Source: Squalus acanthias
Lineage: Eukaryota
Assembly: GCA_030390025.1 (NCBI GenBank)
Contig: CM059432.1
Span: 35,280,001 to 35,344,000, forward strand
DNA: 64,000 bases
Reading direction: 5' to 3'
Shown one piece after another: positions 1,521 through 64,000 of the stretch. How positions within the stretch are numbered: the stretch's first letter is position 1; every line of letters begins with the position of its first letter. Position numbers and translations under genes: made by a program. Below the pieces are notes generated by a model that did not search any database, had not been told where the DNA came from, and saw only the letters and a program-made list of their open reading frames with translations.

Positions 1521-1696
1521 TAGGCAAATTCAGCTGGTACACTTGTGATTTTTCTCAATTCATGGTCAGGTCCTTCATGGATATAAAATGTCTCACTTCT
1601 GAGGGAGCAAAAAAAGGACTTGTCACAAGTCTGGTTCCATAACAAGCATACATTTGAATAACAAAGTGATAGAGTTTGTGGAAGAGTCTGTTAAAA

Positions 1697-2092
1697 GAAA
1701 GCATTTATATAGCACCTTATCACATCACTCAGAAATGTCTCAAAGCACTGCACATAAAATTAATAATTTTCAAGTGTTGTTATGTAAGCAAACACAGCAG
1801 CCGTTCTGCGCAGAGGCAAGATATGACAAACAATAGTGAATGGCCAGTTAATCTGTTTTGGTTGAGAGAGAAATACTAACCAAGAAGACGACCTGCTCTT
1901 CTTCAAACAATGCCATGAGATATTGAACGCCCATCTGAGAAAGTAGCCAGGGTCGGAGTTGTCTTATCTGAAGGACCGCACTCTAGTAATACAGCTCTCT
2001 CAGTACCGCACTGGAATGCCAGGCTAGATTATAAGCTCAAGTCCTGGAGTAGCACTTGAACCCATAACCTTCTGCTGTAAAAGCAAGAGTCA
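1697..2092 (-). mobile_element. Deu-domain SINE copy, degenerate
   Basis: gcatttatatagcacc...ggctagattataagctcaagtcctggagtagcacttgaacccataaccttctg. Confidence 0.65.
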
Positions 2093-2250
2093 AGTGAACC
2101 AAACTGACACATTGAGATAAAAGAAAGAACCATGATGTGGGGGGAGGAGGAGAGAATGATCCCACATTGCCAATGTATGATATTTAACCAATAATAATCC
2201 AAATAAATTAATTTTGATTCTCATGTTTTTACAGAATGGAAACTCTTTAC

Positions 2251-18034: not shown

Positions 18035-19802
18035 TTGTTTTCTTTTTATTCGTTTATGGGATGTGGGCATTGCTGGCAAGGCCAGCATTTATTGCCCATC
18101 CCGAATTGCCCTTGAGAAGGTGGTGGTGAGCCACCTTCTTGAACCGCTGCAGTCCGTGTGGTGAAGGTACTCCCACAGTGCTGTTAGGTAGGGAGTTCCA
18201 GGATTTTGACCCAGCGACGATGAAGGATCGGCGATATATTTCCAAGTCAGAATGGTGTGTGACTTGGAGGGGAACTTGGAGGTGGTGATGTTCCCATGCG
18301 CCTGCTGCCCTTGTCCTTCTAGGTGGAAGAGGTCACGGGTTTGGGAGGTGCTGCCGAAGAAGCCTTGGCGAGTTGCTGCAGTGCATCTTGTAGATAGTAC
18401 ACACTGCAACCACAGTGCGCTGCTGGTGCAGGGAGTGAATTTTTAAGGTGGTGGATGGGGTGCCAATCAAGCGGGCTGCTTTGTCCAGAATGGTGTCGAG
18501 CTTCTTGAGTGTTGTTGGAGCTGCACTCATCCAGGCAAGTGGAGAGTATTCCATCACACTCCTTACTTGTGCCTTGTAGATGCTGGAAAGGCTTTGGGGA
18601 GTCAGGAGGTGAGACACTCGCCACAGAATACCTAGCCTCTGACCTGCTCTTGTTGCCACAGTATTTATGTGGCTGGTCCAGTTAAGTTTCTGGTCAATGG
18701 TGACCCTCAGGATGTTGATGGTGAGGGATTTGGTGATGGTAATGCCGTTGAATGTCAAGGGGCGGTGGTTAGACTCTCGCTTGTTGGAGATAGTCATTGC
18801 CTGGCACTTGTGTGGCGCGAATGTTACCTGCCACTTATCAGCCCAAGCCTGAACGTCGTCCAGGTCTTGTTGCATGCAGACATGGACTGCTTCATTATCT
18901 GAGGAGTTGTGAATGTCACTGAACACTGTGCAGTCATCAGCGAACATCCCCATTTCTGACCTTCTGTTGGAGGGAAGGTCATTGATGAAGCAGCTGAAGA
19001 TGGTTGGGCCTAGGACACTGCCCTGAGGAACTCCTGCAGCGATGTCCTGGGGCTGAGATGATTGATCTTCAACCACCACAACCATCTTCCTTTGTGCTAG
19101 GTAGCACTCCAGCCAGTGGAGAGTTTTCCCTCCGATTCCCATTGACTTCAGTTTTACTAGGGCTCCTTGATGCCACACTCGATCAAATGCTGCCTTGATG
19201 TCAAGGGCAGTCTCTCTCACCTCACCTCACCTCTGGAATTCAGCTCCTTTATCCATGTTTGGACCAAGGATGTAATGAGGTCGGGAGCCAAGTGGTCTTG
19301 GCAGAACCCAAACTGGGCATCAGTGAACAGATTATTGGTGAGTAAGTGCCGCTTGATAGCACTGTCGATGACACCTTCCATCACTTTGCTGATGATTGAG
19401 AGTAGACTGACGGGGCGGTAATTGGCCGGATTGGATTTGTCCTGTTTTTTGTGGACAGGACATACTTGGGCAGTTCTCCACATTGTCAGATAGATGCCAG
19501 TGTTGTAGCTGCACTGGAGCAGCTTGGCTAGAGGCGCTGGAGCACAAGTCTTCAGCAGGACAGCCGGGATGTTGTCGGGGCCCACAGCCTTTGCTATATC
19601 GAGTGCGCTCAGCCGTTCTTGATATCACGTGGAGTGAATCAAATTGGCTAAAGACTGGCTTCTGTGATGATGGGGTCCTCAGGAGAAGGCCGATATGGAT
19701 CATCCACTCGGCACTTCTGGCTGAAGATGGTTGCAAACGCTTCAGCCTTGTCTTTTGCACTCATGTGCTGGGCTCCACCATCATTGAGGATGGGGATATT
19801 CA
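18035..19802 (-). mobile_element. 5'-truncated copy of the same LINE family (RT and 3' end)
   Basis: ORFs 18333-19220 and 19217-19585 are nearly identical to those at 55062-55957 and 60979-62558; same 3' tail. Confidence 0.88.
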
Positions 19803-23100: not shown

Positions 23101-23178
23101 ATGATCTTATTGAATGGCGGAGCAGGCTCGAGGGGCCAAATGACCTACTCCTGCTCCTATTTCTTATGTTCTTATATT
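20122..23178 (+). mobile_element. CR1 (HER1-like) LINE with near-complete but disrupted ORF2, inserted in an older CR1 fragment (~19960-20120 / 23180-23280)
   Basis: ORFs 20396-20836 (APE: GGGVALL, YRPP), 20773-21246 (SDH), 21253-22152 (RT) and 22266-23081. Tail ttcttatgttcttat. ataaat repeated at both flanks. Confidence 0.92.
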
Positions 23179-23574
23179 CTTATAAATAAGGATAAACTAT
23201 TGCCACTGGCAGTAACCAGAATACACAGATTTAAGATAATTAGCAAAAGAACCAGAGGGGAGATGAAGAGAAATGTTTTTACTGATACCAGCTTTTTATT
23301 TCCAAAATTAAAAAAATTGAATTGAAATTCTCAAACAGCCATGAATTGAACTCACATTCACTATAATTATCCAATCAGGCCTTTATTAGATTACTGGTCC
23401 AGTGACATAACCAACACACTACCATACCCACAAATACCAACCCTGCTCCTTTTAAAGTTGTCAATTCACCCAAATCGACTCTCCTCTCTGGCAGTCAGTT
23501 CCACATCCACCATCCAGTGGGGGGAGAAAAAAGTTTTTCTAATGCGCGAGGCTTGTGAATTTTCTACATATCCT

Positions 23575-26384: not shown

Positions 26385-27080
26385 TTTGCTCTCAGGATGT
26401 GGGCTACGCTGGCAAAGTTATGTTTATTGCCCATCCCTTGTTACAGTGGTGGACTTTTTTCAGCACAGAGGTTGTCTTACAACTGCGTGGTTTGCTCTGC
26501 CACTTCAGAGGGCAGCAAGGGTCAACCACATAGTGCAGAACTGGAGTCACGTGCAAACTTGGTAGGGATGGCAGTCCCCTTCGCTGAAGGACATTAGTGA
26601 CCTAGTTGCATTTTTACGACAATCTGGCAGCTTCATAGTTATTTTTCTGGTGCCAGCTCATAAATTACCAGATTTATTGAATTCGCAGCACAGAAACAGG
26701 CCTTTTGGCCCAACTGGTCTGTGCCAGTGTTTATACTCCATTCAAGATGACTCCCACTCTAATTACCTCTATCCCACCCTGCCCGCATATCCTTAAATTC
26801 CCTTCTCCCTCACGCATGCACCAAGCCTCCCCTTAAATGCATCAATGCTCTCTGCTCAACCACTCCATGTGGCAGCAAGTTCCACATTTTCACCACTCTG
26901 TGTAAAGACATTTCCTCCTAAATTCTTTATTTGATCCATTAGTGGCTATCTGATATTTATGCCCCCTTCTTCTGACTCACCCACAAGTGGAAACAGTTTC
27001 TCAATGTCCAATTCTGATTCTACCATGGTGGGATTTGAACTCAGAATCTGTAGGCTGCTAGTCCAGTTCCATAACCAGGC
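26385..27080 (-). mobile_element. 5'UTR+3'tail SINE copy split by a CR1 3' fragment (~26686-27005)
   Basis: Tail and body at 26390-26685; head (gggatttgaactc...gctagtccag...ataacca) at ~27010-27080; CR1 3' sequence between them. Confidence 0.65.
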
Positions 27081-30915: not shown

Positions 30916-31060
30916 CTCTGATGGGGAAAATAATTCCTTCTTCGGAATCCTTCAATCCCCCCCCAACCACCCACCATCCGATCTGTTTTCAGATTTGCAC
31001 ATCTTTCAACCCCTAAAAATCCAGTAGATTGTCTTTTTAAAATTCTTAAATCTAGATGAG

Positions 31061-31460
31061 GTGCCCAGGCCTATGGTGAGGGACACCATCTCAAGGTGAA
31101 GGGCCCAGGCCCATGGTGAGGGTCACCATCCCAGGGTGAAGGGCCCAGGCCCATGGTGAGGGACACCATCCCAGGGTGAAAGGCCCAGGCCCATGGTGAG
31201 GGACACCATCCCAGGGTGAAGGGCCCAGGCCCATGGTGAGGGACACCATCCCAGGGTGAAGGGCCCAGGCCCATGGTGAGGGACACCATCCCAGGGTGAA
31301 GGGCCCAGGCCCATGGTGAGGGACACCATCCCAGGGTGAAGGGCCCAGGCCCATGGTGAGGGACACCATCCCAGGGTGAAGAGCCCAGGCCCATGGTGAG
31401 GGACACCATCCCAGGGTGAAGGGCCCATGGTGAGAGACACCATCCCAGGGTGAAGGACCC
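31061..31460. repeat. 40-bp minisatellite, ~10 near-identical units, with degenerate units to ~31655
   Basis: Unit gggcccaggcccatggtgagggacaccatcccagggtgaa, starting at 31061, 31101 ... 31421. Confidence 0.95.
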
Positions 31461-32294
31461 AGACAGACTCTTAGGGAATCACCCAAAGCTGAAGGTATCG
31501 GATCCATGGTGAGGGACACCATTTAATGATGAAGGGCCCAAACTCACAACTAGCAACACCATCCCAGGGTGAAGGGCCTGGGCCCACGGTGAGGGACACC
31601 ACCCAAGAGTGAAGGGTGAAGACCAACTGAGAGGGACACCACCCAATGGTGAAAATAATAAGATAAAGGACGAAGTAAATCAGGATTACAGTGAGGAGCA
31701 GAGTTAAGAGAATCACCAGTTCAACTTTCCCCCGATGATACTAACCAGCTGCAGATACCGGTCTGTCTGCATCGGCACTTAGTCTACGGGAGGAGACAGC
31801 AGCGATCGATAAAAGCCAACAACTCATTTTCGTTATAAAACAAAGGATGAGCGGTGATCTGACACTGGTGTGTGAGCAGGAATCTGCCTAACAACCCACT
31901 CGAAGAATTGATTTTAAAACTGCCCGCAAGCTCATCGACAGCTCGAGTGTGTCTCGCAGCATTTGTTTGTGCCCCAATCTCATTAAAAAGCAGTTGGCCA
32001 CCTCTCAGGGATTTAATTAGCTCTCCGTGCTCTTGTCCAAAGAACATTCTGGAACATTCACTATAACAACGAGAACTCCCGGATCAAGCCACAACGGCTT
32101 TAGACCTTTTCGCTCGCCTGCATTTCCATGGGAACAAACGAAAGCCAGGAGCAGAAGGAAGAGCAGTGGAAGCTCCACTGGAACGAGATTGGAGATACTG
32201 CACGGCAGAGGTTTTTGGCGCAGTCATCGGTCTTCCAGTCAATGCAATATTCAGTCAGGGCACAGTTCAGGACAACAAAATGTAAAATAAGCAT

Positions 32295-38481: not shown

Positions 38482-38810
38482 GGGGCATGGTAGCCTCGTG
38501 GTTATGGTGCTGGACTAGCAACACAGATAGTTGTGAGTTCTAAATCCCACTACAGCAAGCTGTGAAAATAAATCTGGTAATTTGTGGGCAGGCGCCAGAA
38601 AATGACTGAAATCTGCCAGATTGTTGTAAAAATCTAACTGGTTCACTAATGTCCTTCAGGGAAGAGAACTTGCCACCCCTACCTGGCCTGGTCCTATGTG
38701 TGACTCCAGTTTCACACTACATGGCTGACTCTAAATGCCCTCAAGCAACCTAGGGTGGGCAATAAATATATCCTTGCCAATGTTGCCCACATTTCAAAAG
38801 CAAAAAAAGA
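38482..38810 (+). mobile_element. Another copy of the 5'UTR+3'tail SINE
   Basis: ggcatggtagcctcgtggttatgg...gagttctaaatccc...ctggttcactaatgtccttcagggaag...gcaacctagggtgggcaataaat...gcccacat. Confidence 0.75.
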
Positions 38811-48400: not shown

Positions 48401-49427
48401 AATATATAATTAATCCCTGCCTGGGTAATAACTGAAAGAGATGACTCAATTGGAAAGGAAACTGCAAACGTCAGAAATCGGAAATAAAATATTTTTAAAT
48501 GCTCAGCAGGTCTGCCAGCGACTGGAAAGAGGCGAGCTGTGTTAACATTTCAGGCAGGCATCCTTCGCCTGACGCACACTCGAAAAATTCATCCGCCTTT
48601 TCAGACTCTGTACATCCTTCGCACTTTTTTTTTTAATTAGAAAGCCGTCGGGCAGAATTTCTCAGATAGTGAGTGCAAGACATGTAGGACAATACAGGAA
48701 AGGCAGGGGCTGAGCTTGGGCCTGCTTGTGTCAGAGGGGTTGTACCTGTTCATGTGTGAACAGGGGGCAGTGGGTTATTTCTGTTCTATTCAAACCCTCA
48801 TTATAAAATGTTACCAACAACAACAACTTGCATTTATATAGCGCCTCTAACATAGTAAAACTTCCCAAGGAGCTTCACAGGAGCGTATCAATCAAAGCAG
48901 GGGAGGCCAATATTTATCCCTCAACCAATACCGCTAAAACAGATTCTCTGGTCATTTATCTCAGTACTGTTTGTGGGATCTTACTGTGCGTGAATTGGTG
49001 TTTACAACAGTGACTTCACTTCAAAATTACATCATTAGCTGTGAAGCACTTTAGGATATCGTATGGTCATGAAAGGTGCTATGTAAATGCAAGTTCATTC
49101 TTATTAATTCAGAAAAACAAAACAAAATGGATTCTGTTAGTTACTAGCTCCATTCCCTCCCACTCCAACATCCACCCTCGCTACTTACCTCATATCCAAA
49201 ATCTATGTTTCTTTTTCCTCCTTTTTCTCCCCTCCTCCCAGGGTTATGGCTGAATGGCACTGGCATCTGCCCAGTACATTGCCTATTTCTCACGAGGCAG
49301 ACTGCATGATGAGTGTCAGTGGGATATTTGACCATGGGGGGTGTCCAGCATCTGTGAGTGTGCATTTCTAATGGGGATCATTGGATAGGAACCCTGCCTG
49401 ATTTTTCTACCCCTGGGAACTTCCTTT

Positions 49428-49790
49428 TTTTAAAAATTAATTCTCAGAATGTGGATGTCGCTGAAAAGGCTGGTATTTATTGCCCATCCCTAGTTGCCCT
49501 TGAGAAGGTGATGATAGGCCTTCTTCTTGAACCGCTGAAGTCGATGTGGCGAAGGTGCTCCGATAATACTGTTAGGTTATGAGTTCCAGGATTTTGACCT
49601 AGCGACGATAAAGGAATGGCAATATATGTCCAAGTCAGGATGTGACTTGGAGGGGAACTTGGAGGTGATGGTGTTTCCATGCGCCTGTTGTCCTTCCCCT
49701 TTGAGGTAATGGAAGTCATGGGATTGAGAGGTGCTGCCGAAGAAACCTAGGTGAGTTGATACAGTGTATCCTATAGATTGTGCACACTAT
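49428..49790 (-). mobile_element. Older 3' fragment of the same LINE family
   Basis: Diverged match to 18050-18410 (tail tttattgcccatccctagttgcccttgagaaggtg). Confidence 0.75.
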
Positions 49791-49982: not shown

Positions 49983-50342
49983 TTTTTTTTCGTTCTCAGG
50001 ATGTGGGCGTTGTTGATAAGGCTGGCATTTATTGCCCATCCCTAGTTGCCCAGGTTTGATACAACTGAGTGGCTTGCTAGGCCACTTAGAAGGCAGTTAG
50101 GAGTCGACCATATGTGTGGGGCTGGAGTCACATATAGGCCAGACCAAGTAGGGACATCAGGTTTCCTTCTCTAAAGGACATCAGTGAACCAGTTGAGTTT
50201 TTACAACAATCCAATAGTTTCATGGTCACTTTTACTAATACCAGAAACTGAATTCAAATTTTCAAACTGCCATGGTGAGCTTTGACCTCACGTTCCCCGG
50301 ATTATTAGTCCAGTCGCATAATCACTGCACTACCATACCCTT
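49983..50342 (-). mobile_element. tRNA-headed SINE consisting of the 5' UTR + 3' tail of the single-ORF LINE
   Basis: Reverse complement reads gggtatggtagtgcagtg..ctggactaataatcc..., follows the LINE 5' UTR to ccactcagttgtatcaaac, then joins directly to the LINE 3' tail gggcaactagggatgggcaataaatg...gcccacatcc. Confidence 0.8.
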
Positions 50343-51532: not shown

Positions 51533-53738
51533 TTTGTCTTTTTCTTTCCTTTCATTTCCTCCTTTAGCTCTGATTCCCAAATGCATAGTAAATGGTGGTT
51601 CTTTGGGCTACTATCTCATCAGCTGGCCTTGGAGTTCTGCCAAGTCAGGCACCATTTCCTATGCCCTGCCCCGCGCTGTATGATGTACTAGAGAATGAGG
51701 AATTGGGGATTTTGTGGGGAAAGCAAAAGGACCGCAGCCTGGAGACAACATCTCCAAACCCCCAAGGAGAAAGTCACCCCATCCAACGTCAAAACTTCTG
51801 TCATTGTTAAATTGAGAAACCAAGGTGAAGGTTCAAGTGCAGGAAGAGAGTAGGAGAGAAGACATAGTAACTCAGGAACTGTGAAAAGGTGAAAATGGGT
51901 GAGGAAAGCGAGCAGTTCTAGTTTTTTAAGGCCTGGGAATGAATGAGCTGTGTGCAATTCAGTTCAGCACAGTGAGGCTGTAAAATATATTGATTTCATT
52001 TTTAGAAGAGTTTTCTTTCTTTAATTTTATATATTCTTGGAATATTTATGCTTATTAAGTTCAGCGAATGGAACATTCTTAATTTTTCTCACCCAATGTT
52101 AGCACAGAACATAAGAACATAAGAAATAGGAGCAGGAGTCGGCCATTTTGCCCTTCGAGCCTGCTCCGCCATTCAATACGATCATGGCTGATCTTCTACC
52201 TCATCTCCACTTTCCTGAACTATCCCCATATCCCTTGATTCCCTTAATATTCAAAAATCTATCGATCTCTATCTTGAATATACTCAACAACGAGCCTCCA
52301 CAGCCCTCTAGGGTAGAGAATTCCAAAGATTCACCACCCTCTGAGTGAAGAAATTTCTCCTCATCTTTGTCCTAAATGGCCGACCCCTTATTCTGAGACT
52401 GTGACCCCTGGTTCTAGACTCCCCAGCCAGGGGAAACACCCTCCTTGCATCTACCTTGTCAAGCGCTCTAAGAATTTTGTATGTTTCAATGAGATCACCT
52501 CTCATTCTTCTAAACTCTAGAATAGAGAATATAGGCCTAGTCTACTCAATCTGTCCTCATAGGACAATCCCCCCATCCCAGGAACCAGTCTGGTGAACCT
52601 TCGTTGCACTCCCTCTGTAGCAAGTATATCCTTCCTTAGGTAAGGAGACCAAAACTTTGCACAATACTCCAGGTGTGGTCTCACCAGGGCCCTATATAAT
52701 TGCAATAAGACGTCTTTACTCTTATACTCAAATCCTCTTGTAATAAAGGCCAACATACCATTTGCTTTCCTAATTGCTTGCTGTACCTGCATGTTAACTA
52801 TCAGTGATTTGTGTACAAGGACACCCAGGTCCCTCTGAACACCAACATTTCCTAATCTCTCACCATTTAAAAAATAATCTGCTTTTCTATTTTTCCTATC
52901 AAAGTGGATAACTTCACAAGGGAACGGAAGTGTAGTGGTAATGTCACTGGGCTAGTAATCCAGAGGCCTCGACTAAAGATCCAGAGATGTGAGTTCAAAT
53001 CCCACCACGGCAGCTGGGGAATTTAAATTAAGTTAATTAAATAAATCTGGAATAATTACTAGTATCAGTAATGGTAACCATGAAACTATCGGATTGTCAT
53101 AAAAACCCATCTGGTTCACTAATGTCCTTTAGGGAAGGAAATCTGCCGTCCTTACCAGGTCTGGCCTATCTGTGACTCCTGACCCACAGCAATGTGGTTG
53201 ACTCTTAACTGACCCTCTGAAATGGCCCAGCAAGCCACTCAGTTGTAACAAACTGCTACAAAAAACAATAAAAAGAATGAAACCGGACGGACCGCCCGGC
53301 ATCGACCTCCGCATGGCAACGGCACACCCAGCCCAGTCGACCCTGCAAAGTCCTCTTCACCAACACCTGGGGCCTTGTGCTAAAATTGGGAGAGCTGTTC
53401 CATAGACTAGTCAAGCAACAACCTGACATAGTCATACTCACAGAATCATACCTTTCAGCCAATGTCCCAAACTCCTCCATCACCATCCATGGGTATGTCC
53501 TGTCCCACCGGCAGGACAGACCCACCAGGGGTGGCGGCACAGTGGTATACAGTTGGGAAGGAGTGGCCCTATGAAGTCTCATGGCTTCAGGTTAAGCATG
53601 GGCAAGGAAACCTCCTGCTGATTACCACCTAGCGCCCTCCCTCAGCTGATGAATCACTATTCCTCCATGTTGAACACCACTTGGATGAAGCACTGAGAGC
53701 AGCAAGGGCAGAGAATGTACTCTGGGTGGGGGACTTCA

Positions 53739-54015
53739 TAAAATTATAGAAAGTTACAGCATAGAAGGAGGCCATTTCGGCCCATCGTGCCCGCGCCGGC
53801 CAACAAAGAGCTAACCAGCCTAATCCCACTTCCCAGCTCTTGGTCCATAGCCCTGCAGGCTACCACATCCAAGTACTTTTTAAATGTGGTTAGGGTTTCT
53901 GCCTCTACCACCCTTTCAGGCAGTGAGTTCCAGACCCCCACAACCCTCTGGGTGAAGAAATTTCTCCTCAAATCCCCTCTAAACGTTCTACCAATTACTT
54001 TAAATCTGTGCTTCA
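53739..54015 (-). mobile_element. Short CR1 3' fragment nested in the tRNA-headed LINE
   Basis: MRRNFFTQRVVGVWNSLPERVVEAE; host gacttca duplicated on both sides. Confidence 0.8.
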
Positions 54016-54713
54016 GACTTCAATGTCCATCACCAAGAGGGGCTCGGTAGCACCATTACTGACCGAGCTGGCTGAGTCCTGAAGGACGTAACTGCCAGTC
54101 TGGGCCTGTGACAGGTGGTGAAAGAACCAACATGAGGGAAAAACCTACTTGACCTCGTCCTCACCAATCTACCTGTTGCAGATGCATCTGTCCATGACAG
54201 TAATGGTAGCAGTGACCACCGCACAGTCATTGTAGAGACAAAGTCCCATCATCACACTGAGGACACCCTCCATCGTGTTGTGTGGCACTACCACCGTGCT
54301 AAATGGGATAGATTCAGAACAGATCTAGCAGCTCAAAACTGGGCATCCATGAGGCCTGTGGGCCATCAGCAGCAACAGAATTGTATTCCACCACAATCTG
54401 TAACCTCATGGCCCGGCATATCCCTCACTCTACCATTACCATCAAGCCAGGGGACCAACCCTGGTTCAATAAGGAGTGTAGAAGAGCATACCAGGAGCAG
54501 CACAAATGAGGTGCCAACCTGGGGAAGCTGCAAAACAGGACTACATGCATGCTAAAAAGGAGAAGCAGTATGCTATAGACAGAGCTAAGCGATCCCACAA
54601 TCAACAGATCAGATCAAAGCTCTGCAGTCCTACCACATCCAGTCGTGAATGGTGGTGAACCATTAAACAACTAACAGGGAGGAGGAGGCTCCATGACTAT
54701 CCCCATCCTCAAT

Positions 54714-54859
54714 AGAAACATAGAAAAATAGGAGCAGGAGTAGGCCATTCGGCCCTTCAAGCCTGCTCCGCCATTCAATATGATCATGGCTGATCCTCTA
54801 TCTCAATATCATATTCCCGCTCTCTCCCCATACCCCTTGATGCCTTTTGTGCCTATTGT
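54714..54859 (-). mobile_element. CR1 3' UTR fragment nested in the tRNA-headed LINE
   Basis: agaaacatagaaaaataggagcaggagtaggccattcggccc..., the CR1 tail seen throughout the window. Confidence 0.8.
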
Positions 54860-56122
54860 CAATGATGGTAGAGCCCAGCACGTGAGTGCAAAAGACAAGG
54901 TTGAAGCGTTTGCAACCATCTTCAGCCAGAAGTGCCGAGTGGATGATTCATATTGGCCTCCTCCTGAGGTCCCCACCATCACAGAAGCCAGTCTTCAGCC
55001 AATTTGATTCACTCCACATGATATCAAGAAATGGCTCAGCGCACTGGATACAGCAAAGGCTATGGGCACTGACAACATCCCGGCTATCGTGCTGAAGACT
55101 TGTGCTCCAGAACTAGCTGTGCCTCTAGTGAAGCTGTTCCAGTACAGCTACAACACTGGCATCTATCCGACAATGTGGAAAACTGCCCAGGTATGTCCTG
55201 CCCACAAAAAGCAGGACAAATCCAACCCGGCCAATTACCGCCCCATCAGTCTACTCTCAATCATCAGCAAAGTGATGGAAGGTGTCATCGACAGTGCTAT
55301 CAAGCGGCACTTACTCACCAATAACCTGCTCACTGATGCCCAGTTTGGGTTCCGCCAAGACCACTCGGCTCCCGACCTCATTACAGCCAGAGGTGAGGTG
55401 AGAGTGACTGCCCTTGACATCAAGGCAGCATTTGACCGAGTCTGGTATGAAGGAGCCCTAGTAAAACTGAAGTCAATGGGAATCGGGGGGGAAAACTCGA
55501 CTGGCTGGAGTCATACCTAGCACAAAGGAAGATGGTTGTGGTGATTGAAGATCAATCATCACAGCCCCAGGACATCACTGCAGGAGTTCCTCAGGGCAGT
55601 GTCCTAGGCCCAACAATCTTCAGCTGCTTCATCAATGACCTTCCCTCCAACATAAGGTCAAAAATGGGAATGTTTGCTGATGACTGCACAGTGTTCAGTG
55701 CCATTCACAACTCCTCAGATAATGAAGCAGTCCATGCCCGCATGCAGCAAAACCTGGATGACGTTCAGGCTTGGGCTGATAAGTGGCAGGTAACATTCAC
55801 GCCACAGAAGTGCCAGGCAATGACTATCTCCAACAAGCGAGAGTCTAACCCCACCATCAACATCCTGGGGGTCACCATTGACCAGAAACTTAACTGGACC
55901 AGCCACATAAGTACTGTGACGACAAGAGCAGGTCAGAGGCTAGGTATTACTTCCTGACTCCCCAAAGCCTTTCTAGCATCTACAAGGCACAAGTAAGGAG
56001 TGTGATGGAATACTCTCCACTTGCCTGGATGAGTGCAGCTCCAACAACACTCAAGAACCTCGACACCATCCAGGACAAAGCAGCCTGCTTGATTGGCACC
56101 CCATCTACCACCTTAAACATTC

Positions 56123-58095
56123 TCTTCTTCTCTTCGGCAGTCCCTGTGAACTGAGGATGACTTGCTTCCACATTAAAAATGAGTTCTCCGGTGACTGATG
56201 AGTCCAATGCGAGACCTACAGTCTCTGTCACAGGTGGGGCAGATGGTGGTTGAAGGGGCGGGTGGGTGGGGTGCTTGGGTTGACGTGCGCTCCTTGTGTT
56301 GCTTGCGCTTGGTTTCCACTTGCTCCCGGCGAAGAGACTCGAGGTGTTCGGCGCCTTCCCGGATGCTTCTCCTCTACTTTGTGCGGTCTTGGGCCAGGGA
56401 TTCCCATGTGTCATTGGGGATGTTGCACTTTTTCAAGGAGGCTTTGAGGGTGTCCTTGAAGCGTTTCCTTTGCCCACCTGGGGCTCTCTTGCCGTGCCGG
56501 AGCTCCGAGTAGAGCGCATGTTTTGGGAGTCTCGTATCGAGCATGCGGACGATGTGACCCGTCTATCGGAGCTGATCGAGCGTGGTCAAAGCTTCGATGC
56601 TGGGGATGTTGGCCTGAGCGAGAACACTGACGTTGATGCGCCTATCCTGCCAATGGGTTTACAGGATCTTGCGGAGACAGCGTTGGTGGTACCTCTCCAG
56701 TGCTTTGAGGTGCCTGCTGTACATGGTCCATGTCTCTGAGGCATACAGCAGGGCGGGTATCACTGCTGCTCTGTAGACCATGAGCTTAGTGCCGGGTTTG
56801 AGGTGCTGGTCTTCAAACACTCTCTTCCTCAGGCGACCGAAGGCTGCACTGGCACACTGAAGGCGGTGTTGGACTTCGTCATCGACGTCTGCCCTTGTTG
56901 ACAGTAGGCTCCCGAGGTATGGAAAGTGGTCCACGTTGTCCAAGGCCTTGTCGTGGATTTTGATTATTGGGGGGCTGTACTGTGTGGTGGGGGCAGGTTG
57001 GTAGAGGACCTTTGTCTTACGGATGTTTAGTGTAAGGCCCATGCTCTCGTACGCTTCGGTGAATGTGTTGACGATGGTTTGGAGTTCGACCTCCGAGTGA
57101 GCGCAGACACAAGCGTCGTCTGCATACTGTAAATCGACGACAGAGGATGGGACGACCTTGGATCTGGACTGGAGGTGACGGAGGTTGAACAGTTTCCCGT
57201 TAGTTCTGTAAATTAGTTCCACTCCAGCAGGGAGCTTACTGAGGGTGAGATGGCGCATTGCAGCAAGGAAGATCGAGAAGAGCGTTAGTGCAATGACACA
57301 GCTTTGCTTGACCCCGGTCCATACGTGAATTGGGTCTGTGGTGGAACCGTTGGTCAGGATCACGGCTTGCATGTCATCGTGAAGCAGGCGGAGGATAGTG
57401 ACAAACTTTTGAGGGCAGCTGATTTGAGGAGGACACTCCATAATCCCTCACGGTTGACAGTGTCGAAGGCCTTTGTGAGATCAAAGAAGACCATGTACAG
57501 CGGTTGGTGCTGTTCCCTGCATTTCTCTTGTAATTGACGCGCGGTGAAGATCATGTCCATTGTGCCCCTTAGTGGGTGGAATCCGCATTGTGACTCTGGG
57601 AGGAGCTCTTCGGCCACTGGGAGAAGGCAATTGAGGAGGATTCTTGCGATGACTTTCCCTGTGGCAGACAGCAGGGAAACTCCTCTGTAATTACCGCAGT
57701 CGGACTTGTCACCTTTCTTGAAGATGGTCAAAATTACGGCGCCACTGAGATCCCCTGGCATGCTCTCCTCCTTCCAGATAAGAGAAATTAGTTCATGAAT
57801 TCGCGCCAATAGTGCTTCTCCGCTATGCTTTAGTGCCTCGGCAGGGATTCCATCTGCTCCTGAGGCCTTGTTGTTCTTCAGTTGTCGGATGGCCTTTCCA
57901 ACCTCATGCTGGGCTGGGGTTGTGCTGAGATGGTGGCGGGTAGCATGCTGCGGGATGGAGTTGAAGACAGAGTCTCGGTTAAGGAGATCTTCGAAGTGCT
58001 CCTTCCAGCGGGCACTGACTGCCTCTCTGTCCTTGATGAGTACCTCTCCGTTCTTGGCCCGCAGTGGGGTAGGACCTTGGGTGCTTGGGCGATAG
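56123..58095 (-). mobile_element. RTE-clade (BovB-like) LINE, 5'-truncated, inserted in the tRNA-headed LINE
   Basis: ORFs 57360-57809 (KGDKSDCGNYRGVSLLS, LPESQCGF) and 56659-57441 (LQYADD). (GAA)-type 3' tail at 56123-56133. Host attc duplicated at 56119-56122 and 58096-58099. Confidence 0.88.
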
Positions 58096-60066
58096 ATTCA
58101 CTCCCTCCACCACCGGCGTACCGTGGCTGCAGTGTGTACCATCTACAAGATGCACTGCAGCAACTCACCAAGGTTTCTTCAGCAGCACCTCCCAAACCCG
58201 TGACCTCTTTCACCTAGAAGGACAAGGGCAGCAGGCGCATGGGAACACCACCACCTCCAAGTTCCCCTCCAAGTCACACACCATCCTGACTTAGAAGTAT
58301 ATCGCTGATCCTTTATCGGTGCTGGGTCAAAATCCTGGAACTCCCTACCTAACAGCACTGTGGGAGTACCTTCACCACACGGAGTGCAGCGGTTCAAGAA
58401 GGCGGCTCACCACCATCTTCTCGAGGGCAATTAGGGATGGGCAATAAATGCTGGCCTTGCCAGCGACGCCCACATTCCATAAACAAATTAAAAAATAGAT
58501 AATTCTCCACATTATATTCCATTTGCCATGTTCTTGCCCACTTACTTAGCCTGTCTATATCCCCTTGAAGCCTCCTTGCATCCTCCTCACAACTTACATT
58601 CCCACCCAGCTTTGTATCCTCAGCAAAGTTGGATATATTACATTTGGTCCCCTCATCCAAATCATCGATGTAGATTGTGAATAGCTGAGGCCCAAGCACT
58701 GATCCTTGCGGTACCCCACTAGTTACAGCCTGCCAACCCGAAAATGACCCATTTATTCTTGCTCTCTGTTTTCTGTCTGTTAACCAATTCTCAATCCATG
58801 CTAGTATATTACCCCAATCCCAGGAGCCCTAATTTAGTTTAATAACCTCTTGTTTGGCACCTTATCGAATGCCTTCTGAAAATCCAAATACACCACATTA
58901 TCTATTCTGCTAGTTACCACCTCAAAAAACTCTAATAGATTTGTCAAACACGATTTCCCTTTCATAAATCCGTGTTGACTCTGCCCAATCCTATTATTAT
59001 TTTCTAAGTGCCCTGATACCACGTCCTTAATAATAGATTCCAGCAAACTGGTCTGTAGTTCCCCGTTTTTTTCTCTCCCTCCTTTCTTAAATAGTGGGGT
59101 TACATTTGCTACCTTCCAATCCGCGGGAACCGTTCTAGAATCTATGGAATTTTGAATAATGACAACCAATGCATCCACTATCTCTATAGCCAACTCTTTC
59201 AAAACCCTAGGATGTAGGCCATCAGGTCCAGGGGATTTATCGGCTTTCAGTCCCATTAATTTCTCCAGTACTACTTTTTTACGAATACTAATTTCTTTCA
59301 GTTCCTCATTCTCACTCGACCCTTGGTTCTCCACTATTTCCGGGAAGATTTTTGCGTCTTCGTCCGTGAAGACAAACACAAAGTATTTGTTTAATTTTTC
59401 TGCCATTTCCTTATTCCCAATTATAATTTCTCCCGTCTCAGCCTGTAAGGGACCTACATTTACTTTGGCTTATATTTTCCTTTTTACATACCTATAGAAG
59501 CTTTTACAGTCTGTTTTTATGTCTCTCGCTAGTTTACTCTCATTCTATTTTCCCTTTCATCATCAATTTCTTGGTCCTCCTTTGCTGAATTCTAAAATCC
59601 TCCCAATCCTCAGGCTTACTACTGTTTTTGGCAACATTATAAGCTTCTTCCTTTGATCTAATACTATCTTTAACTTCTCTTGTTAGCCACGGTTGAACCA
59701 CTTTTCCTGTGGGGTTTTTGTGTCTTAAAGGAATGTATATTTGTTGTAAATTATGTATTAATTCTTTAAATGCTAGTCATTGCTCGTCCACTGTCATACC
59801 TTTTAATGTAGTTTCCCAATCTACCTTAGACAACTCGCCCCTCATACCTACGTAGTTTGCTTTGTTTAGATTTAAGACTCTAGTTTCGGATTTACCTAAG
59901 TCACTTTCAAACTCAATATAAAATTCTATCATATTATGGTTACTCTTTCCTAAAGGCCCCTTTACTACAAGGTTATTAATTAACTCTTTCTCGTTGCACA
60001 ATACTAGATCTAAAGTAGCCTGTTCCCTAGTTGGTTCCTCAACATACTGATCTAGAAAACTATTAG

Positions 60067-60162: not shown

Positions 60163-60493
60163 GCTCCAACAATGTTAGGTATGGAGCCTTTTCCTTTCGA
60201 CGCCCATTGAATTAAGTTTTGCTCAGGCTCCTTGGTGTCATGCTGTGATTGATGACGAGGGCAGCAATTTTCACCTCTCCTCTGAGGTTCAGCTTGTGCC
60301 CATTTCTGGATTAAGGTTATGATCAGCTTTGCAGTCAAGTGGTTCTAGCAGAACTCAAAATGAGCGATGATGATCAGATTATTGGTGAGTAGGTGTTGCT
60401 TGACAGCACTACTGATGACTCCATCCATTATTTTACTTATGATTGGGAGGAGGCTGACCAGGTTAGATCTTCAGCTACTTCATCAATGACCTT

Positions 60494-60780: not shown

Positions 60781-60912
60781 TTCCCCCTGTCATAAAGTCA
60801 AGAGTGGAGCTGTTCACTGCCGATTCCAGAGTGTTCAGCTCCATTCACAATTTCCCTGATGGCGAAGGAGCCGTTGCAAGCTAATAACCATCTCGACAAA
60901 AAAGCCCAGTCA

Positions 60913-63900
60913 TTTCTTTTTTTAATTTGTTCATGGGATGTGGGCGTCGCTGGCAATGCCAGCATTTATTGCCCATCCCTAGTTGCCCTTGAGAAGGTGG
61001 TGGTGAGCCGCCTCCTTAAACCGCTGCAGTCTGTGTGGTGAAGGTACTCCCACAGTGCTGTTAGGTAGGGAGTTCCAGGATTTTGACCCAGCGATGATGA
61101 AGGATTGGCAATATACTTCTAAGTCAGAATGGTGTGTGACTTGGAGGGGAACTTGGAGGTGGTGGTGTTCCCATTCGCCTGCTGCCCTTGTCTTTCTAGG
61201 TGGAAGAGGTCGCGGGTTTGGGAGGTGCTGCCAAAGAAGCCTTGGCGAGTTGCTGCAGTGCATCCTGTAGATGGTACACACTGCAGCCACGGTACACCGG
61301 TGGTGGAGGGAGTGAATGTTTAAGGTGGTGGATGGGGTGCCAATCAAGCGGGCTGCTTTGTCCTGGATGGTGTCGAGCTTCTTGAGTGTTGTTGGAGCTG
61401 CACTCATCCAGGCAAGTGGAGAGTATTCCATCACACTCCTTACTTGTGCCTTGTAGATGGTGGAAAGGCTTTGGGGACTCAAGAGGTGAGACACTCGCCT
61501 CAGAATACCTAGCCTCTGACCTTTTCTTGATGCCACAGTATTTATGTGGCTGGTCCAGTTAAGTTTCTGGTTAATGGTGACCCCCAGGATGTTGATAGTG
61601 GGGGATTCGGCGATGGTAATGCCAATGAATGTCAAGGGGAGGTGGTTAGACTCTCGCTTGTTGGAGATAGTCATTGCCTGGCACTTCTGTGGCGTGAATG
61701 TTACGCGCCACTTATCAGCCCAAGCCTGAATGTCATCCAGGTCTTGTTGCATGTGGGCATGGACTTCTTCATTATCTGTGGAGTTGCGAATGGCGCTGAA
61801 CACTGTGCAGTTATCAGCGAACATCCCCATTTCTGACCTTATGTTGGAGGGAAGGTCATTGATTAAGCAGCTGAAGATGGTTGGGCCTAGGACACTGCCC
61901 TGAGGAACTCCTGCAGCGATGTCCTGGGGCTGTGATGATTGACCTTCAACCACCACAACCATCTTCCTTTGTGCTTGGTATGACTCCAGCCAATAGAGAG
62001 TTTTCCCCCCGATTCCCATTGACTTCAGTTTTACTAGGGCTCCTTGATGCCAGACTCGGTCAAATGCTGCCTTGATGTCACTCTCACCTCACCTCTGGAA
62101 TTCAGCTCCTTTGTCCATGTTTGGACCAAGGCTGTAATGAGGTCGGGAGCAGAGTGGTCTTGGCGGAACCCAAACTGGGCATCAGTGAGCAGGTTATTGG
62201 TGAGTAAGTGCCGCTTGATAGCACTGTCGATGACACCTTCCATCACTTTGCTGATGATTGAGAGTAGACTGATGGGGCAGTAATTGGCCGGGTTGGATTT
62301 GTCCTGCTTTTTGTGGACAGGACATACCTGGGCAGTTTTCCACATTGTCGGATAGATGCCAGTGTTGTAGCTGTACTGGAACAGCTTGGCTAGAGGCACG
62401 GCTAGTTCTGGAGCACAAGTCTTCAGCACGATAGCCGGGATGTTGTCGGGGCCCATAGCCTTTGCTGTATCCAGTGAATTCAATTGGCTGAAGAATGGCT
62501 TCTGTAATGGTGGGGACCTCGGGAGTAGGCCGATATGGATCAGCCTTGTCTTTTGCACTCACGTGCTGGGCTCCACCATCATTGAGGATGGGGATATTCT
62601 TGGAGCCTCCTCCTCCCGTTAGTTGTTTAACGGTCCACCACCATTCACGACTGAATGTGACAGGACTGCAGAGCTTTGATCTGATCCGTTGATTGTGGGA
62701 TCGCTTAGCCCTGTCTATAGCATGCTGCTTCCACTTTTTAGCATGCATGTAGTCCTGTGTTGCAGCTTCCCCAGGTTGGCACCTCATTTTTAGGTACGCC
62801 TGATGCTGCTCCTGTACACTCGTTGTTGAACCAGGGTTGGTAATGGTACAGTGAGGGATATGCCGGGCCATGAGGTTACAGATTGTGGTGGAATACAATT
62901 CTGCTGCTGGCCCACAGCGCCTCATGGATGCCCAGTTTTGAGCTGCTAGATCTGTTCTGAATCTATCCAATTTAGTACAGTGGTAGTGCCACACAACACG
63001 ATGGAGGGGGTCCTCAGTGTGAAGACGGGACTTCGTCTCCACAATGACTGTGCAGTGGTCACAGCTACCAATACTGTCATGGATAGATGCATCTGCGACA
63101 GGTAGATTGGTGAGGACGAGGTCAAGTAGGTTTTTCCCTCGTGTTGGTTTCTCTCACCACCTGTCACAGGCCCAGACTGGCAGCTATTGTCCTTCAGTAC
63201 TCAGCCACTCTTGGTGATGGACATTGAAGTCCCCACCCAGAGTACATTCTGTGCCCTTGCTACTCTCAGTGCTTCTTCCAAGTGGTGTTCAACATGGTGG
63301 AGTACTGATTCATCAGCTGAGGGAGGGCAGTAGGTGGTAATCAGCAGGTTGTTTCCTTGCCCATGCTTGACCTGAAGCCATGAGACTTCATGGGGTCTGG
63401 AGTCAATGTTGAGGACTCCCAGGGCCACTCCTTCCCGACTGTATACCACTGTGCCACCGGTGGGATAGGACATACCCAGGGATGGTGATGGAGGAGTTCG
63501 GGACATTGGCTGAAAGGTATGATTCTGTGAGTATGACTATGGCAGGCTGTTGCTTGACTAGTCTGTGGGACAGCTCTCCCAATTTTGGCACAAGTCCCCA
63601 GATGTTGGTGAGGAGGACTTTGCAGGGTTGACTGGGCTGGGTGTGCGTTGTCGTGTCCGTAGCCGGTGCCGAGGTTGATGCCGCGTGGTCCGTCCCGTTT
63701 CATTCTTATTATTTTGTAGCGGTTAGTTACAACTGAGTGACTTGCTGGGCCATTAAGTCACATATAGGCCAGACCAAGTAAGGATGGCAGATTTCTTTCC
63801 CTAAAGGACATTAGTGAACCAGATGGGTTTTTACGACAATCCGATAGTTTCATGGTTACCATTACTGATACTAGCTTTTTATTCCAGATTTACTTAATTA

Positions 63901-64000
63901 ACTGAATTTAAATTCCCCAGCTGCCGTGGTGGGATTTGAACTCACATCTACTGGATCATTAGTCCAGGCCTCTGGATTACTAGCCCAGTGACATTACCAC
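60913..64000 (-). mobile_element. Second copy of the tRNA-headed single-ORF LINE (head cut by the window edge)
   Basis: Same head (reverse complement of 63925-64000) and same ATG context (63703, MKRDGP vs MKPDGP). APE/RT ORF fragments 63201-63506, 62194-63042, 62034-62558 and 60979-62019, the last ending HHLLKGN*. Confidence 0.88.

What the first reader, a model, noticed from the sequence alone, without database searches (positions are those of the whole stretch)
60913..64000. No Pol III terminator (TTTT) on the sense strand of the whole LINE
Seen in sequence (manual scan): across 60913-64000 the plus strand has no AAAA, i.e. no sense-strand T4 in ~3.1 kb. The opposite run (plus-strand TTTT) occurs about 15 times. 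The same holds for the host portions of the + copy (52920-58497 excluding its three insertions) and for 18050-19800. Neighbouring CR1 (20122-23178), L2 (12181-15285) and RTE (56123-58095) copies all contain sense T4 runs. Established: vertebrate Pol III terminates at 4 or more T residues. Inference: a ~1000-codon ORF has been selected to avoid T4, which independently supports full-length transcription by Pol III. Caveats: LINE sense strands are often T-poor, and the three copies descend from one ancestor.
Basis: partly seen in the sequence, partly recalled or inferred. Interest (0 to 1): 0.82.

Follow-up and report, generated by a model that had tools for sequence, protein, structure and literature searches.

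The report
T-run-free LINE with tRNA head
A dead copy of an old 3.1 kb jumping gene that starts with a tRNA-like promoter avoids runs of T on its coding strand, which hints that it was copied whole by RNA polymerase III, an enzyme thought to make only short RNAs.

Summary
The plus strand of 60913-64000 has no AAAA, so the sense (minus) strand has no T4. The same holds for 18050-19800 and for the LINE segments of the + copy. It was also true of the family ancestor: in 75 copies, no T4 site is shared by 20% or more.

Zero T4 alone is weak evidence. Dinucleotide and synonymous-codon shuffles expect only 1.4-1.9, giving P(0) = 0.13-0.21.

A stronger form of the test is significant. In a natural 815-codon ORF:
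- T|T across codon boundaries is 7 against 16.7-20.8 expected (P <= 0.001).
- T3+ runs are 4 against 9.5-10.7 expected.

A-runs are normal. This avoidance is absent from 51 head-less relatives (each has 3-56 T4), from other LINE fragments in the window, and from one host gene.

All 51 complete 5' ends examined begin with a tRNA-derived, SINE-type head. The only recurrent T>=4 lies at the extreme 3' end.

Best reading, about 0.55: Pol III transcribed the whole element from this head. Transcription itself was not tested.

The parts
63917..64000 (-). tRNA-derived head of the LINE. The window end cuts it; about 15 nt more, including most of the A box (TAGCGTAGTGG), lie beyond 64000.
   Evidence: all 51 complete 5' ends examined start GGGAACGG + A box. 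The A box regex matches 42 of 51, the relaxed B box 35 of 51, both 28 of 51, with spacing of 51-54 nt. Rfam tRNA scores 26.0 and 25.4 bits, below the 29-bit cut-off, in 2 of 4 loci. ARAGORN calls tRNA-Ile(aat) in 2 of 50 loci.
63932..63943 (-). B box-like motif GAGTTCAAATCC
   Evidence: position; conservation across copies.
63720..63916 (-). SINE-type body between the head and the ORF. This copy lacks 43 nt that the other copies have.
   Evidence: A SINE copy in the window (49983-50313) matches LINE positions 45-291 and then the last 71 nt.
60982..63712 (-). Decayed APE + RT coding region, broken into several frames.
   Evidence: ORF pieces. (tblastn of P0001 residues 1-815 onto 63288-60982). 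(APE N-terminus just after the SINE body). (P0001: RVT_1 138 bits, Exo_endo_phos_2 43 bits).
61573..62079 (-). Reverse transcriptase domain, C-terminal two thirds of Pfam RVT_1.
   Evidence: window:60979-62088:- residues 4-172, RVT_1 E = 1.8e-23.
60917..61012 (-). 3' tail shared with the SINE, including AATAAA at 60965-60970.
   Evidence: One search shows joints 214->2929 of L001 (the SINE form) in contigs of 3 of the 4 runs laid.
60917..60925 (-). Terminal TT + A7. This is the family's variable (T)n(A)m end.
   Evidence: of 40 termini, the T run is 1-8 long, and T>=4 in 9 of 40. One search gives the position.
60898..60903 (-). First sense-strand T run (T6) downstream, in flanking DNA 13 nt past the A run (the T run begins 14 nt beyond it).
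18040..19801 (-). 5'-truncated copy of the same family (element positions about 1413-3095). It has no sense T4.
52935..58495 (+). Full-length copy of the same family, interrupted by insertions (53739-54068, about 54714-54858, and an RTE-like LINE at 56126-58095). Its LINE segments have no sense T4.

Best explanation
The region is a dead copy of an old, abundant, roughly 3.1-3.3 kb single-ORF (APE + RT) LINE. Its canonical 5' end is a tRNA-derived SINE head with A and B boxes plus a SINE body. Its last 70-100 nt are the tail of the same SINE. The family ancestor had no T>=4 on the sense strand. Beyond that, it avoided putting T next to T at synonymous sites, and only on the sense strand.

Most likely mechanism (inferred, not shown): RNA polymerase III starts at the tRNA-type internal promoter, so the transcript begins at the element's first base, as in SINEs. 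It must then read about 3 kb without meeting a terminator, so lineages that gained T runs were lost. Termination occurs at a T run at, or just after, the 3' end.

Shown here: the anatomy, the ancestral absence of T4, the strand-specific avoidance of T runs, and its absence from the controls. Inferred: that Pol III is the cause, and that the SINE is a deletion derivative of this LINE (or that the LINE captured the SINE's 5' part).
For: Anatomy.
- All 51 complete 5' ends examined begin GGGAACGG + A box, directly after unrelated flanks.
- 26 of the 29 best genome hits to the head, other than the query's own locus, run on into the LINE body for at least 700 nt.
- The head is tRNA-like.

T runs.
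- 0 of 19 T4 sites is shared by 20% or more of 75 copies. By contrast, 15 A4, 11 C4 and 9 G4 sites are shared by at least half.
- In the natural 815-codon ORF, T|T codon junctions are 7 vs 20.8 +/- 3.7 (0 of 2000 shuffles as low), or 16.7 +/- 3.3 with the CpG-aware null (P = 0.001).
- Junctions that would make T3+ are 1 vs 8.5 (7.0). T3+ runs are 4 vs 10.7 (9.5).
- T|T is the most depleted of the 16 junction dinucleotides (ratio 0.33; C|G is 0.41).
- A runs are normal (A4+ 11 vs 9.4).
- In the window copy itself, piece 859-1815 has T|T 2 vs 13.8.

Controls.
- 51 intact head-less relatives: T4 3-56 each; rhoTT mean 1.06, minimum 0.90, against 0.71-0.74 here. Their T|T ratio has mean 0.95 and minimum 0.55. 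Their T3+ ratio has mean 0.99 and minimum 0.77, against 0.37 here.
- Other LINE fragments of the window, pooled (2076 codons): T|T ratio 0.91, T3+ 1.00.
- Host RAG1 exon (644 codons): T|T ratio 1.07, T3+ 1.10.

3' end. The only recurrent T>=4 is at the very 3' terminus (9 of 40 termini), about 41 nt after an AATAAA.
Against: - T4 = 0 itself is not significant under dinucleotide or codon nulls (P 0.13-0.21).
- The T run-length distribution falls smoothly, with no step at 4.
- Isolated TT, which is not a terminator, is also depleted (6 vs 12.3), so the avoidance is not specific to T4.
- TTT vs TTC usage (3:15) does not differ significantly from other Y-ending codon pairs (Fisher P = 0.19).
- 5 of 51 relatives also show T|T junction z below -3, though milder (ratios 0.55-0.85). 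Other forces can therefore lower T|T.
- In the C-terminal RT piece of the window copy the depletion is not significant (7 vs 10.1).
- All copies share one ancestor, so this is a single evolutionary observation.
- The junction statistic was chosen after the T4 test failed.
- 31 of 40 termini have no T4 at the 3' end.
- Published opinion holds that Pol III processivity limits such elements to about 1.3 kb and that LINEs use Pol II (PMC10886601 and PMC5786205, passages read).
- A Pol III RNA would be uncapped. The 5' 330 nt hold several ATGs, and no ATG opens the APE frame in most copies.
- No transcription data were obtained.
Confidence: 0.55

Rival explanations
1. The LINE is made by Pol II or by read-through transcription, and the tRNA-like head serves as something else. 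It could be a 5' processing signal cut at +1 by RNase P, in the way HDV-like ribozymes trim other LINEs, or a platform that recruits Pol II. On this view the lack of T4 and the TT avoidance come from other selection on the RNA, for example against U-rich destabilising or polyadenylation-enhancing tracts.
For: The 5' end coincides with tRNA position +1/-1, which is where RNase P cuts (established knowledge, recalled). Kojima 2018 (PMC5786205, Discussion read) describes 5' self-cleaving ribozymes in six LINE clades and states that LINEs are Pol II transcribed. An AATAAA about 41 nt before the A tail fits ordinary polyadenylation. T4 = 0 is not significant on its own. Isolated TT is also depleted.
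Against: Nothing in this model predicts a sense-strand-specific avoidance of T-T with normal A, C and pyrimidine junctions (C|T 1.08, T|C 1.12, C|C 1.15). The avoidance is absent from 51 relatives, from other LINEs of the window and from a host gene. Two AATAAA and one ATTAAA sit at positions about 113-133 of the 5' region in several copies, which is awkward for a Pol II mRNA. The head has a duplicated anticodon arm, so recognition by RNase P is uncertain.
Confidence: 0.27
2. Chance and composition. The ORF simply happens to be T-poor (20% T; codon position 1 is 13.5% T; Phe is 2.2% of residues). The absence of T4 and the low TT are a by-product with no link to transcription. The head is a passenger acquired once by a 5' chimera.
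For: Expected T4 is only 1.4-1.9 under dinucleotide and codon nulls. All copies descend from one ancestor. The run-length decay is smooth. The secondary statistics were chosen post hoc.
Against: T|T junction and T3+ depletion hold while amino-acid sequence and codon usage are fixed (P from below 0.001 to 0.007). The ratios lie outside the range of all 51 relatives. A passenger head would not be kept at the exact 5' terminus of all 51 complete 5' ends unless transcription starts there.
Confidence: 0.13
3. Pol III transcribes only the short SINE and deletion derivatives. The full-length LINE RNA is made another way, and the T-run avoidance reflects reverse-transcription or priming constraints tied to the (T)n(A)m 3' end.
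For: A variable T run sits next to the A tail. SINE-like derivatives exist: L066 is head 3-333 + tail 2948-3095, and L042 is 1-382 + 1536-3094.
Against: Internal A runs, the more obvious mispriming sites, are not depleted. This model gives no mechanism that would start full-length RNA at the head's first base.
Confidence: 0.05

Closest known systems
tRNA-derived SINEs with a LINE-type tail, for example the SacSINE1/LmeSINE1 Deu-SINEs of cartilaginous fishes and coelacanth, which share their tail with an L2 LINE (PMC5499810, passages read)
   Same: tRNA-related head with A and B boxes, a middle body, and a 3' tail identical to a LINE tail. No internal T4. In the genome a short form made of the LINE's first ~291-333 nt plus its last 71-148 nt exists.
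   Different: Here 2.7 kb encoding APE + RT lies between body and tail, so the element is autonomous. Identity of the head and body with SacSINE1 or the Deu domain is only recalled resemblance. No reference sequence was available to test it.
L2/CR1-group LINEs (single APE + RT ORF)
   Same: Exo_endo_phos_2 + RVT_1 architecture. 5'-truncated copies. Short or absent target-site duplications. Nearest database proteins are about 40% identical and are labelled 'jockey' by sources. 35% identity to the window's L2 fragment, against 25-27% to CR1 and RTE.
   Different: The 5' end is a tRNA-type Pol III promoter rather than a Pol II 5' UTR. No ORF1. Sense-strand T-run avoidance is not seen in 51 relatives. 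Clade membership was not tested against reference RT sequences.
T+ SINEs (B2, Dip, Ves): AATAAA, Pol III terminator and A tail at the 3' end (PMC8466645, abstract seen)
   Same: AATAAA about 41 nt before the end, then a T run (T>=4 in 9 of 40 termini), then an A run.
   Different: Most copies (31 of 40) have T1-T3 only. The element is 3 kb and coding. Polyadenylation of its RNA is untested.
ingi/RIME and L1Tc/NARTc: an autonomous LINE and its deletion derivative share a 5' internal promoter, Pr77 (PMC1874656, abstract seen)
   Same: An autonomous element and a short non-autonomous form share both the 5' promoter-bearing end and the 3' end.
   Different: Pr77 depends on Pol II. Here the shared 5' end is tRNA-derived.
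TRIMp3 (Cassandra, Helenus, Ajax): LTR elements with small-RNA-derived Pol III promoters (PMC10886601, passages read)
   Same: A retroelement class normally driven by Pol II that carries a tRNA or 5S promoter.
   Different: Those are non-autonomous and at most about 1.3 kb. The paper argues that autonomous partners must use Pol II because of Pol III processivity.

Membership tests
Non-LTR retrotransposon (LINE), APE type | Reverse transcriptase domain | tested here: met
   RVT_1 at 138.1 bits (E = 4.1e-40) in P0001. RVT_1 at 83.8 bits in the window copy.
Non-LTR retrotransposon (LINE), APE type | N-terminal apurinic-type endonuclease | tested here: met
   Exo_endo_phos_2 at 43.2 bits (cut-off 27.4) in P0001, which is 5'-truncated. 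The APE N-terminal motif region is visible in full-length copies.
Non-LTR retrotransposon (LINE), APE type | Many dispersed copies with a common 3' end, variable 5' truncation, and an A-rich end | tested here: met
Non-LTR retrotransposon (LINE), APE type | Target-site duplications | tested here: inconclusive
   Plausible 7-10 nt duplications in only 2 of 12 copies.
L2 clade | RT phylogeny with reference L2 elements | not tested
   No reference sequences were available. The only data are 35% identity to the window's L2-like fragment, against 25-27% to CR1 and RTE fragments.
tRNA-derived SINE-type head (type 2 Pol III promoter) | A box TRGCNNAGTGG and B box GGTTCGANNCC at tRNA-like spacing, at the 5' terminus | tested here: met
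   A box in 42 of 51 heads, relaxed B box in 35 of 51, both in 28 of 51, spacing 51-54 nt. The 5' end lies 8 nt before the A box. The box consensus sequences are recalled.
tRNA-derived SINE-type head (type 2 Pol III promoter) | Recognisable tRNA ancestry | tested here: inconclusive
   Rfam tRNA at 26.0 and 25.4 bits, below the 29-bit cut-off, in 2 of 4 loci. ARAGORN calls a tRNA in 2 of 50 loci and none in the window.
Pol III transcription unit | No T>=4 between start and end on the non-template strand | tested here: met
   Ancestral state: 0 shared T4 sites in 75 copies. 10 of 22 long copies are still T4-free.
Pol III transcription unit | T-run terminator at the 3' end | tested here: inconclusive
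   T>=4 at the terminus in 9 of 40 copies and T1-T3 in the rest. The window copy has T2, followed by T6 13 nt into the flank.
Pol III transcription unit | Transcription by Pol III (inhibitor sensitivity, 5' triphosphate, occupancy) | not testable with these tools
   No raw RNA reads were available, and contigs cannot show starts or ends.
Deu-SINE / SacSINE1 | Deu-domain sequence in the body | not tested
   No reference sequence could be obtained: no supplements were held, and a search for the sequence in papers found none.

The most novel reading that the evidence does not exclude
This is an autonomous, protein-coding non-LTR retrotransposon that RNA polymerase III transcribes over its full length of about 3 kb from a tRNA-derived internal promoter. 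Its coding sequence has been shaped by selection against terminator-like T runs. Its partner SINE is simply this element with the ORF deleted. That would be a direct LINE-to-SINE link and a natural case of a long Pol III-made mRNA.
Probability: 0.5. Interest if true: 0.9.

Novelty: new variant of a known kind. Interest (0 to 1): 0.74.

Why it matters
LINEs are taken to be Pol II transcripts and SINEs to be Pol III transcripts. Recent papers argue that Pol III processivity confines Pol III-driven retroelements to about 1.3 kb or less, and that autonomous elements must use Pol II (PMC10886601, PMC5786205; passages read).

A 3 kb APE+RT element that carries the SINE's own head, body and tail, and whose codons avoid T runs, would challenge that division. 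It would offer a concrete route for SINE birth (deletion of the ORF) or for promoter capture by a LINE. It would also be a natural system for asking how an uncapped Pol III RNA is translated and used in cis by its reverse transcriptase.

The T-run signature gives a cheap sequence-only screen for other such elements.

If instead the head turns out to be a processing signal or a passenger, the finding reduces to an unusual 5' UTR capture plus an unexplained codon-context bias.

Tried and rejected
- ARAGORN and Rfam at gathering thresholds on the window found nothing. The head is cut by the window end, and the + copy is degenerate.
The first attempt to cut loci failed because the machine was busy.
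- Statistics that were not significant:
  - windows of 6 nt with at least 5 T: 0 vs 1.8, P = 0.23;
  - TTT:TTC bias against other Y pairs: Fisher P = 0.19;
  - T4 under all within-sequence nulls.
- Sister-family copies at 70-72% nt identity (L075-L077, window 49421-49788, window 60181-60458) are 5'-truncated and too decayed to show whether they had a head or avoided T runs (rhoTT 0.65-1.14).
- RNA evidence: no RNA holder listed. The four runs laid are short contigs of the repeat family. They show only the SINE-form joint, and no starts, ends or strand.
- Literature: six searches found no paper describing a LINE with a tRNA-derived head or a Pol III-transcribed LINE. A seventh found no usable source on translation of Pol III transcripts, so that point is recalled only.
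- No supplementary files were held for PMC5499810, so SacSINE1 and L2-2_CM sequences could not be compared.
- Earlier findings of the scan: three look-ups, nothing returned.
Full report
OBSERVATION

The plus strand of 60913-64000 has no run of four or more A. It has 16 runs of T4+, 7 of C4+ and 12 of G4+. The element lies on the minus strand, so its sense strand has no T4.
- The second copy (18050-19800) is also free of sense T4.
- In the + copy, the six plus-strand T4 runs all fall in inserted DNA. None falls in the five LINE-homologous segments.
- The CR1-, L2- and RTE-like fragments nearby carry sense T4 at about the mononucleotide expectation.

WHAT THE ELEMENT IS

The window sits in a 3.7 Gb eukaryotic assembly. 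One protein hit's source name suggests a cartilaginous fish; this is a hint only.

I extended the locus past the window end and compared it with other copies.
- The element is about 3.1-3.3 kb long.
- Its 3' end is at window 60917. Its 5' end is about 15 nt beyond the window end.
- It is a LINE. A natural, unmodified 815-codon open frame in a 5'-truncated copy (L006:261-2705:-, P0001) has Exo_endo_phos_2 and RVT_1 domains.
- The nearest database proteins are about 40% identical.
- The family is abundant and old. First-look searches gave thousands of candidates. Copies are 79-95% identical to this one. All but one long frame are broken.

Every complete 5' end examined (51 of 51) begins GGGAACGG followed by an A box, directly after unrelated flanking DNA.
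- The A box pattern survives in 42 of 51 heads.
- A relaxed B box survives in 35 of 51, and both in 28 of 51, spaced 51-54 nt apart.
- The head scores just under the Rfam tRNA cut-off (26.0 and 25.4 vs 29 bits, in 2 of 4 loci).
- ARAGORN calls it tRNA-Ile in 2 of 50 loci.
- It carries a duplicated anticodon-like arm.

After the head comes about 200 nt of SINE-type body, then the APE N-terminus. The last 70-100 nt, together with the first ~290 nt, make up a SINE that occurs in the window (49983-50313) and in the genome. In run contigs the same form appears as a joint that skips 2714 nt. So the LINE looks like the SINE with 2.7 kb of coding sequence inside it.

IS ZERO T4 MORE THAN CHANCE?

I mapped the runs of 75 copies onto one reference. 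Nineteen T4 sites occur somewhere, but none in 20% or more of the covering copies (the maxima are 5 of 67 and 5 of 36). By contrast, 15 A4, 11 C4 and 9 G4 sites are shared by at least half. Individual long copies have 0-3 T4, and 10 of 22 have none. The recurrent internal T4 sites are parallel C>T changes at ancestral T3 sites. So the ancestor was T4-free.

Expected counts of T4 under different nulls:

| Null | Expected T4 | P(0) |
|---|---|---|
| Mononucleotide composition | 4.4-4.5 | about 0.012 |
| Dinucleotide-preserving shuffles | 1.39-1.90 | 0.14-0.21 |
| Synonymous-codon shuffles, natural ORF | 1.7-1.8 | 0.13 |
| CpG-aware synonymous shuffles | 1.5 | 0.18 |

T run lengths fall smoothly (about 470: 78: 8: 0).

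A STRONGER TEST

T4 is too rare to have power, so I counted its precursors, holding the protein sequence and codon usage fixed. All counts are for the natural 815-codon ORF.

| Statistic | Observed | Expected (plain) | Expected (CpG-aware) | P (plain) | P (CpG-aware) |
|---|---|---|---|---|---|
| T|T codon junctions | 7 | 20.8 +/- 3.7 | 16.7 +/- 3.3 | 0 of 2000 shuffles as low | 0.001 |
| T|T junctions creating T3+ | 1 | 8.5 | 7.0 | 0 of 1000 shuffles as low | 0.0035 |
| T3+ runs | 4 | 10.7 | 9.5 | 0.001 | 0.0065 |

- T|T is the most depleted of all 16 junction dinucleotides (ratio 0.33, lower than C|G at 0.41).
- C|T, T|C and C|C are at or above expectation, so this is not avoidance of pyrimidine tracts.
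- A runs are normal, so the effect is strand-specific.
- In the window copy itself, one long frame piece shows T|T 2 vs 13.8. The other shows 7 vs 10.1, which is not significant.

CONTROLS

Of 80 metagenome contigs that encode relatives, 51 have an intact ORF of at least 600 codons. The other 29 were dropped for shorter frames or an N.
- None of the 51 has a tRNA or A/B boxes upstream. 42 of them have at least 134 nt of upstream sequence.
- All 51 have sense T4 (3-56 each).
- Their rhoTT has mean 1.06 and minimum 0.90, against 0.71-0.74 here.
- Their T|T junction ratio has mean 0.95, SD 0.14 and minimum 0.55.
- Their T3+ ratio has mean 0.99 and minimum 0.77, against 0.37 here.
- Five relatives do show junction z below -3, but with milder ratios.

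Other LINE fragments of the same window, pooled (2076 codons), give T|T 0.91, T3+ 1.00 and T4 0.85.

One host gene, a 644-codon RAG1 exon piece, gives T|T 1.07 and T3+ 1.10, with 5 T4.

The avoidance is therefore specific to this family. The host control is thin, and the other LINE fragments are decayed.

THE 3' END

Forty termini read GAAT(T)n(A)m, with n = 1-8. T>=4 occurs in 9 of 40, and this is the only place where T4+ recurs. An AATAAA lies about 41 nt upstream. This resembles the AATAAA - terminator - A tail layout described for T+ SINEs (PMC8466645, abstract only). Most copies, however, have fewer than four T. The window copy has TT then A7, and the first sense T run (T6) starts 14 nt into the flank.

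INTERPRETATION

A tRNA-type internal promoter at the exact 5' terminus explains how full-length copies keep their first base. It is the mechanism by which SINEs are made. A strand-specific purge of T-T, strongest where it would build T3+, is what selection against Pol III terminators would leave.
- States one mutation from a lethal T4 should themselves be thinned in surviving lineages (inference).
- Weaker T-rich terminators are known for human Pol III (recalled, not checked).

I therefore favour full-length Pol III transcription, at about 0.55.

Against this reading:
- The T4 count itself is not significant.
- Isolated TT is also depleted.
- The junction statistic was chosen after the fact.
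- There is only one evolutionary lineage.
- There is no transcription evidence.
- Translation of an uncapped RNA is a problem. The leader has several ATGs, and no ATG opens the APE frame in most copies.

The main rival (about 0.27) keeps Pol II or read-through transcription and gives the head another role, such as RNase P processing. That rival does not predict the T-T avoidance. Pure composition or chance is about 0.13.

KNOWN OR NEW?

Papers read in part state that LINEs are Pol II transcripts and that Pol III processivity limits such elements (PMC5786205 Discussion; PMC10886601 passages; PMC2666806 passages). PMC2666806 also uses internal 4-T terminators to argue against Pol III for SVA.

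Six literature searches found no description of a tRNA-headed LINE or a Pol III-transcribed LINE. The library lacks most subscription journals and Repbase Reports, so prior description cannot be excluded.

Resemblance of the head and body to SacSINE1/Deu-SINEs, and of the LINE to L2, is recalled or indirect and was not tested.

VERDICT

I class this as a new variant of a known kind, with interest 0.74.

Noticed in passing
window 49983-50313 (-); also 23279-23423, 26395-26683, 38619-38705: SINE copies made of the LINE's head and body (positions 45-291) joined to its last ~71 nt. They are 72-84% identical to the LINE's ends, so they are older or more diverged than the LINE copies.
   Followed up: partly
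L066 (G000:C5) and L042 (G000:C20): Internal-deletion derivatives of the LINE. L066 is head 3-333 + tail 2948-3095 (SINE-like). L042 is 1-382 + 1536-3094.
   Followed up: partly
element positions about 290-330 (window about 63680-63720) and the aligned copies: Most copies have no ATG in the APE frame near its start. An ATG (AAGAATGAAACC) opens a short frame that overlaps the APE frame in another phase. A 12-nt indel polymorphism lies just downstream. How the ORF is initiated is unclear.
   Followed up: partly
element positions about 113-133 in L003, L007 and L012 (head/body region): Up to two AATAAA and one ATTAAA hexamers lie within the first 135 nt of the sense strand. None occurs in the 2.7 kb ORF of the six copies checked, apart from ATTAAA at about 1380-1512 in four and at 624 in one.
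   Followed up: no
window 56126-58095 (-): An RTE-like LINE fragment (RVT_1 hits) is inserted into the + copy of the tRNA-headed LINE. Two further insertions lie at 53739-54068 and about 54714-54858.
   Followed up: partly
window 49421-49788 (-) and 60181-60458 (-); L075-L077: Fragments of an older sister LINE family: 70-79% nt identity and 43-74% aa identity to P0001. All copies fetched are 5'-truncated, so whether that family has a head is unknown.
   Followed up: partly
window 30977-31700: A tandem array with 20/40-nt periodicity (18 registered copies of a 171-nt reference unit).
   Followed up: no
L112, L115, L118, L081, L087 (metagenome contigs): Five of 51 head-less relatives also show T|T codon-junction z below -3 (ratios 0.55-0.85), while still carrying 7-37 T4. 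The cause is unknown.
   Followed up: no
runs X1-X9 against L001:1-4200: Small runs of 100-160 million letters, from three coded organisms, hold 29-38% of the 31-mers of this single diverged locus. Laid out, they are 80-120 nt repeat-family contigs of very high word depth, highest over the LINE's 3' part and the head. It is unresolved whether this reflects copy number or expression.
   Followed up: partly
L033 (G000:C13:1229500-1232100), just after the LINE's A tail: A run of N (a gap or withheld stretch) directly follows the element's 3' end.
   Followed up: no
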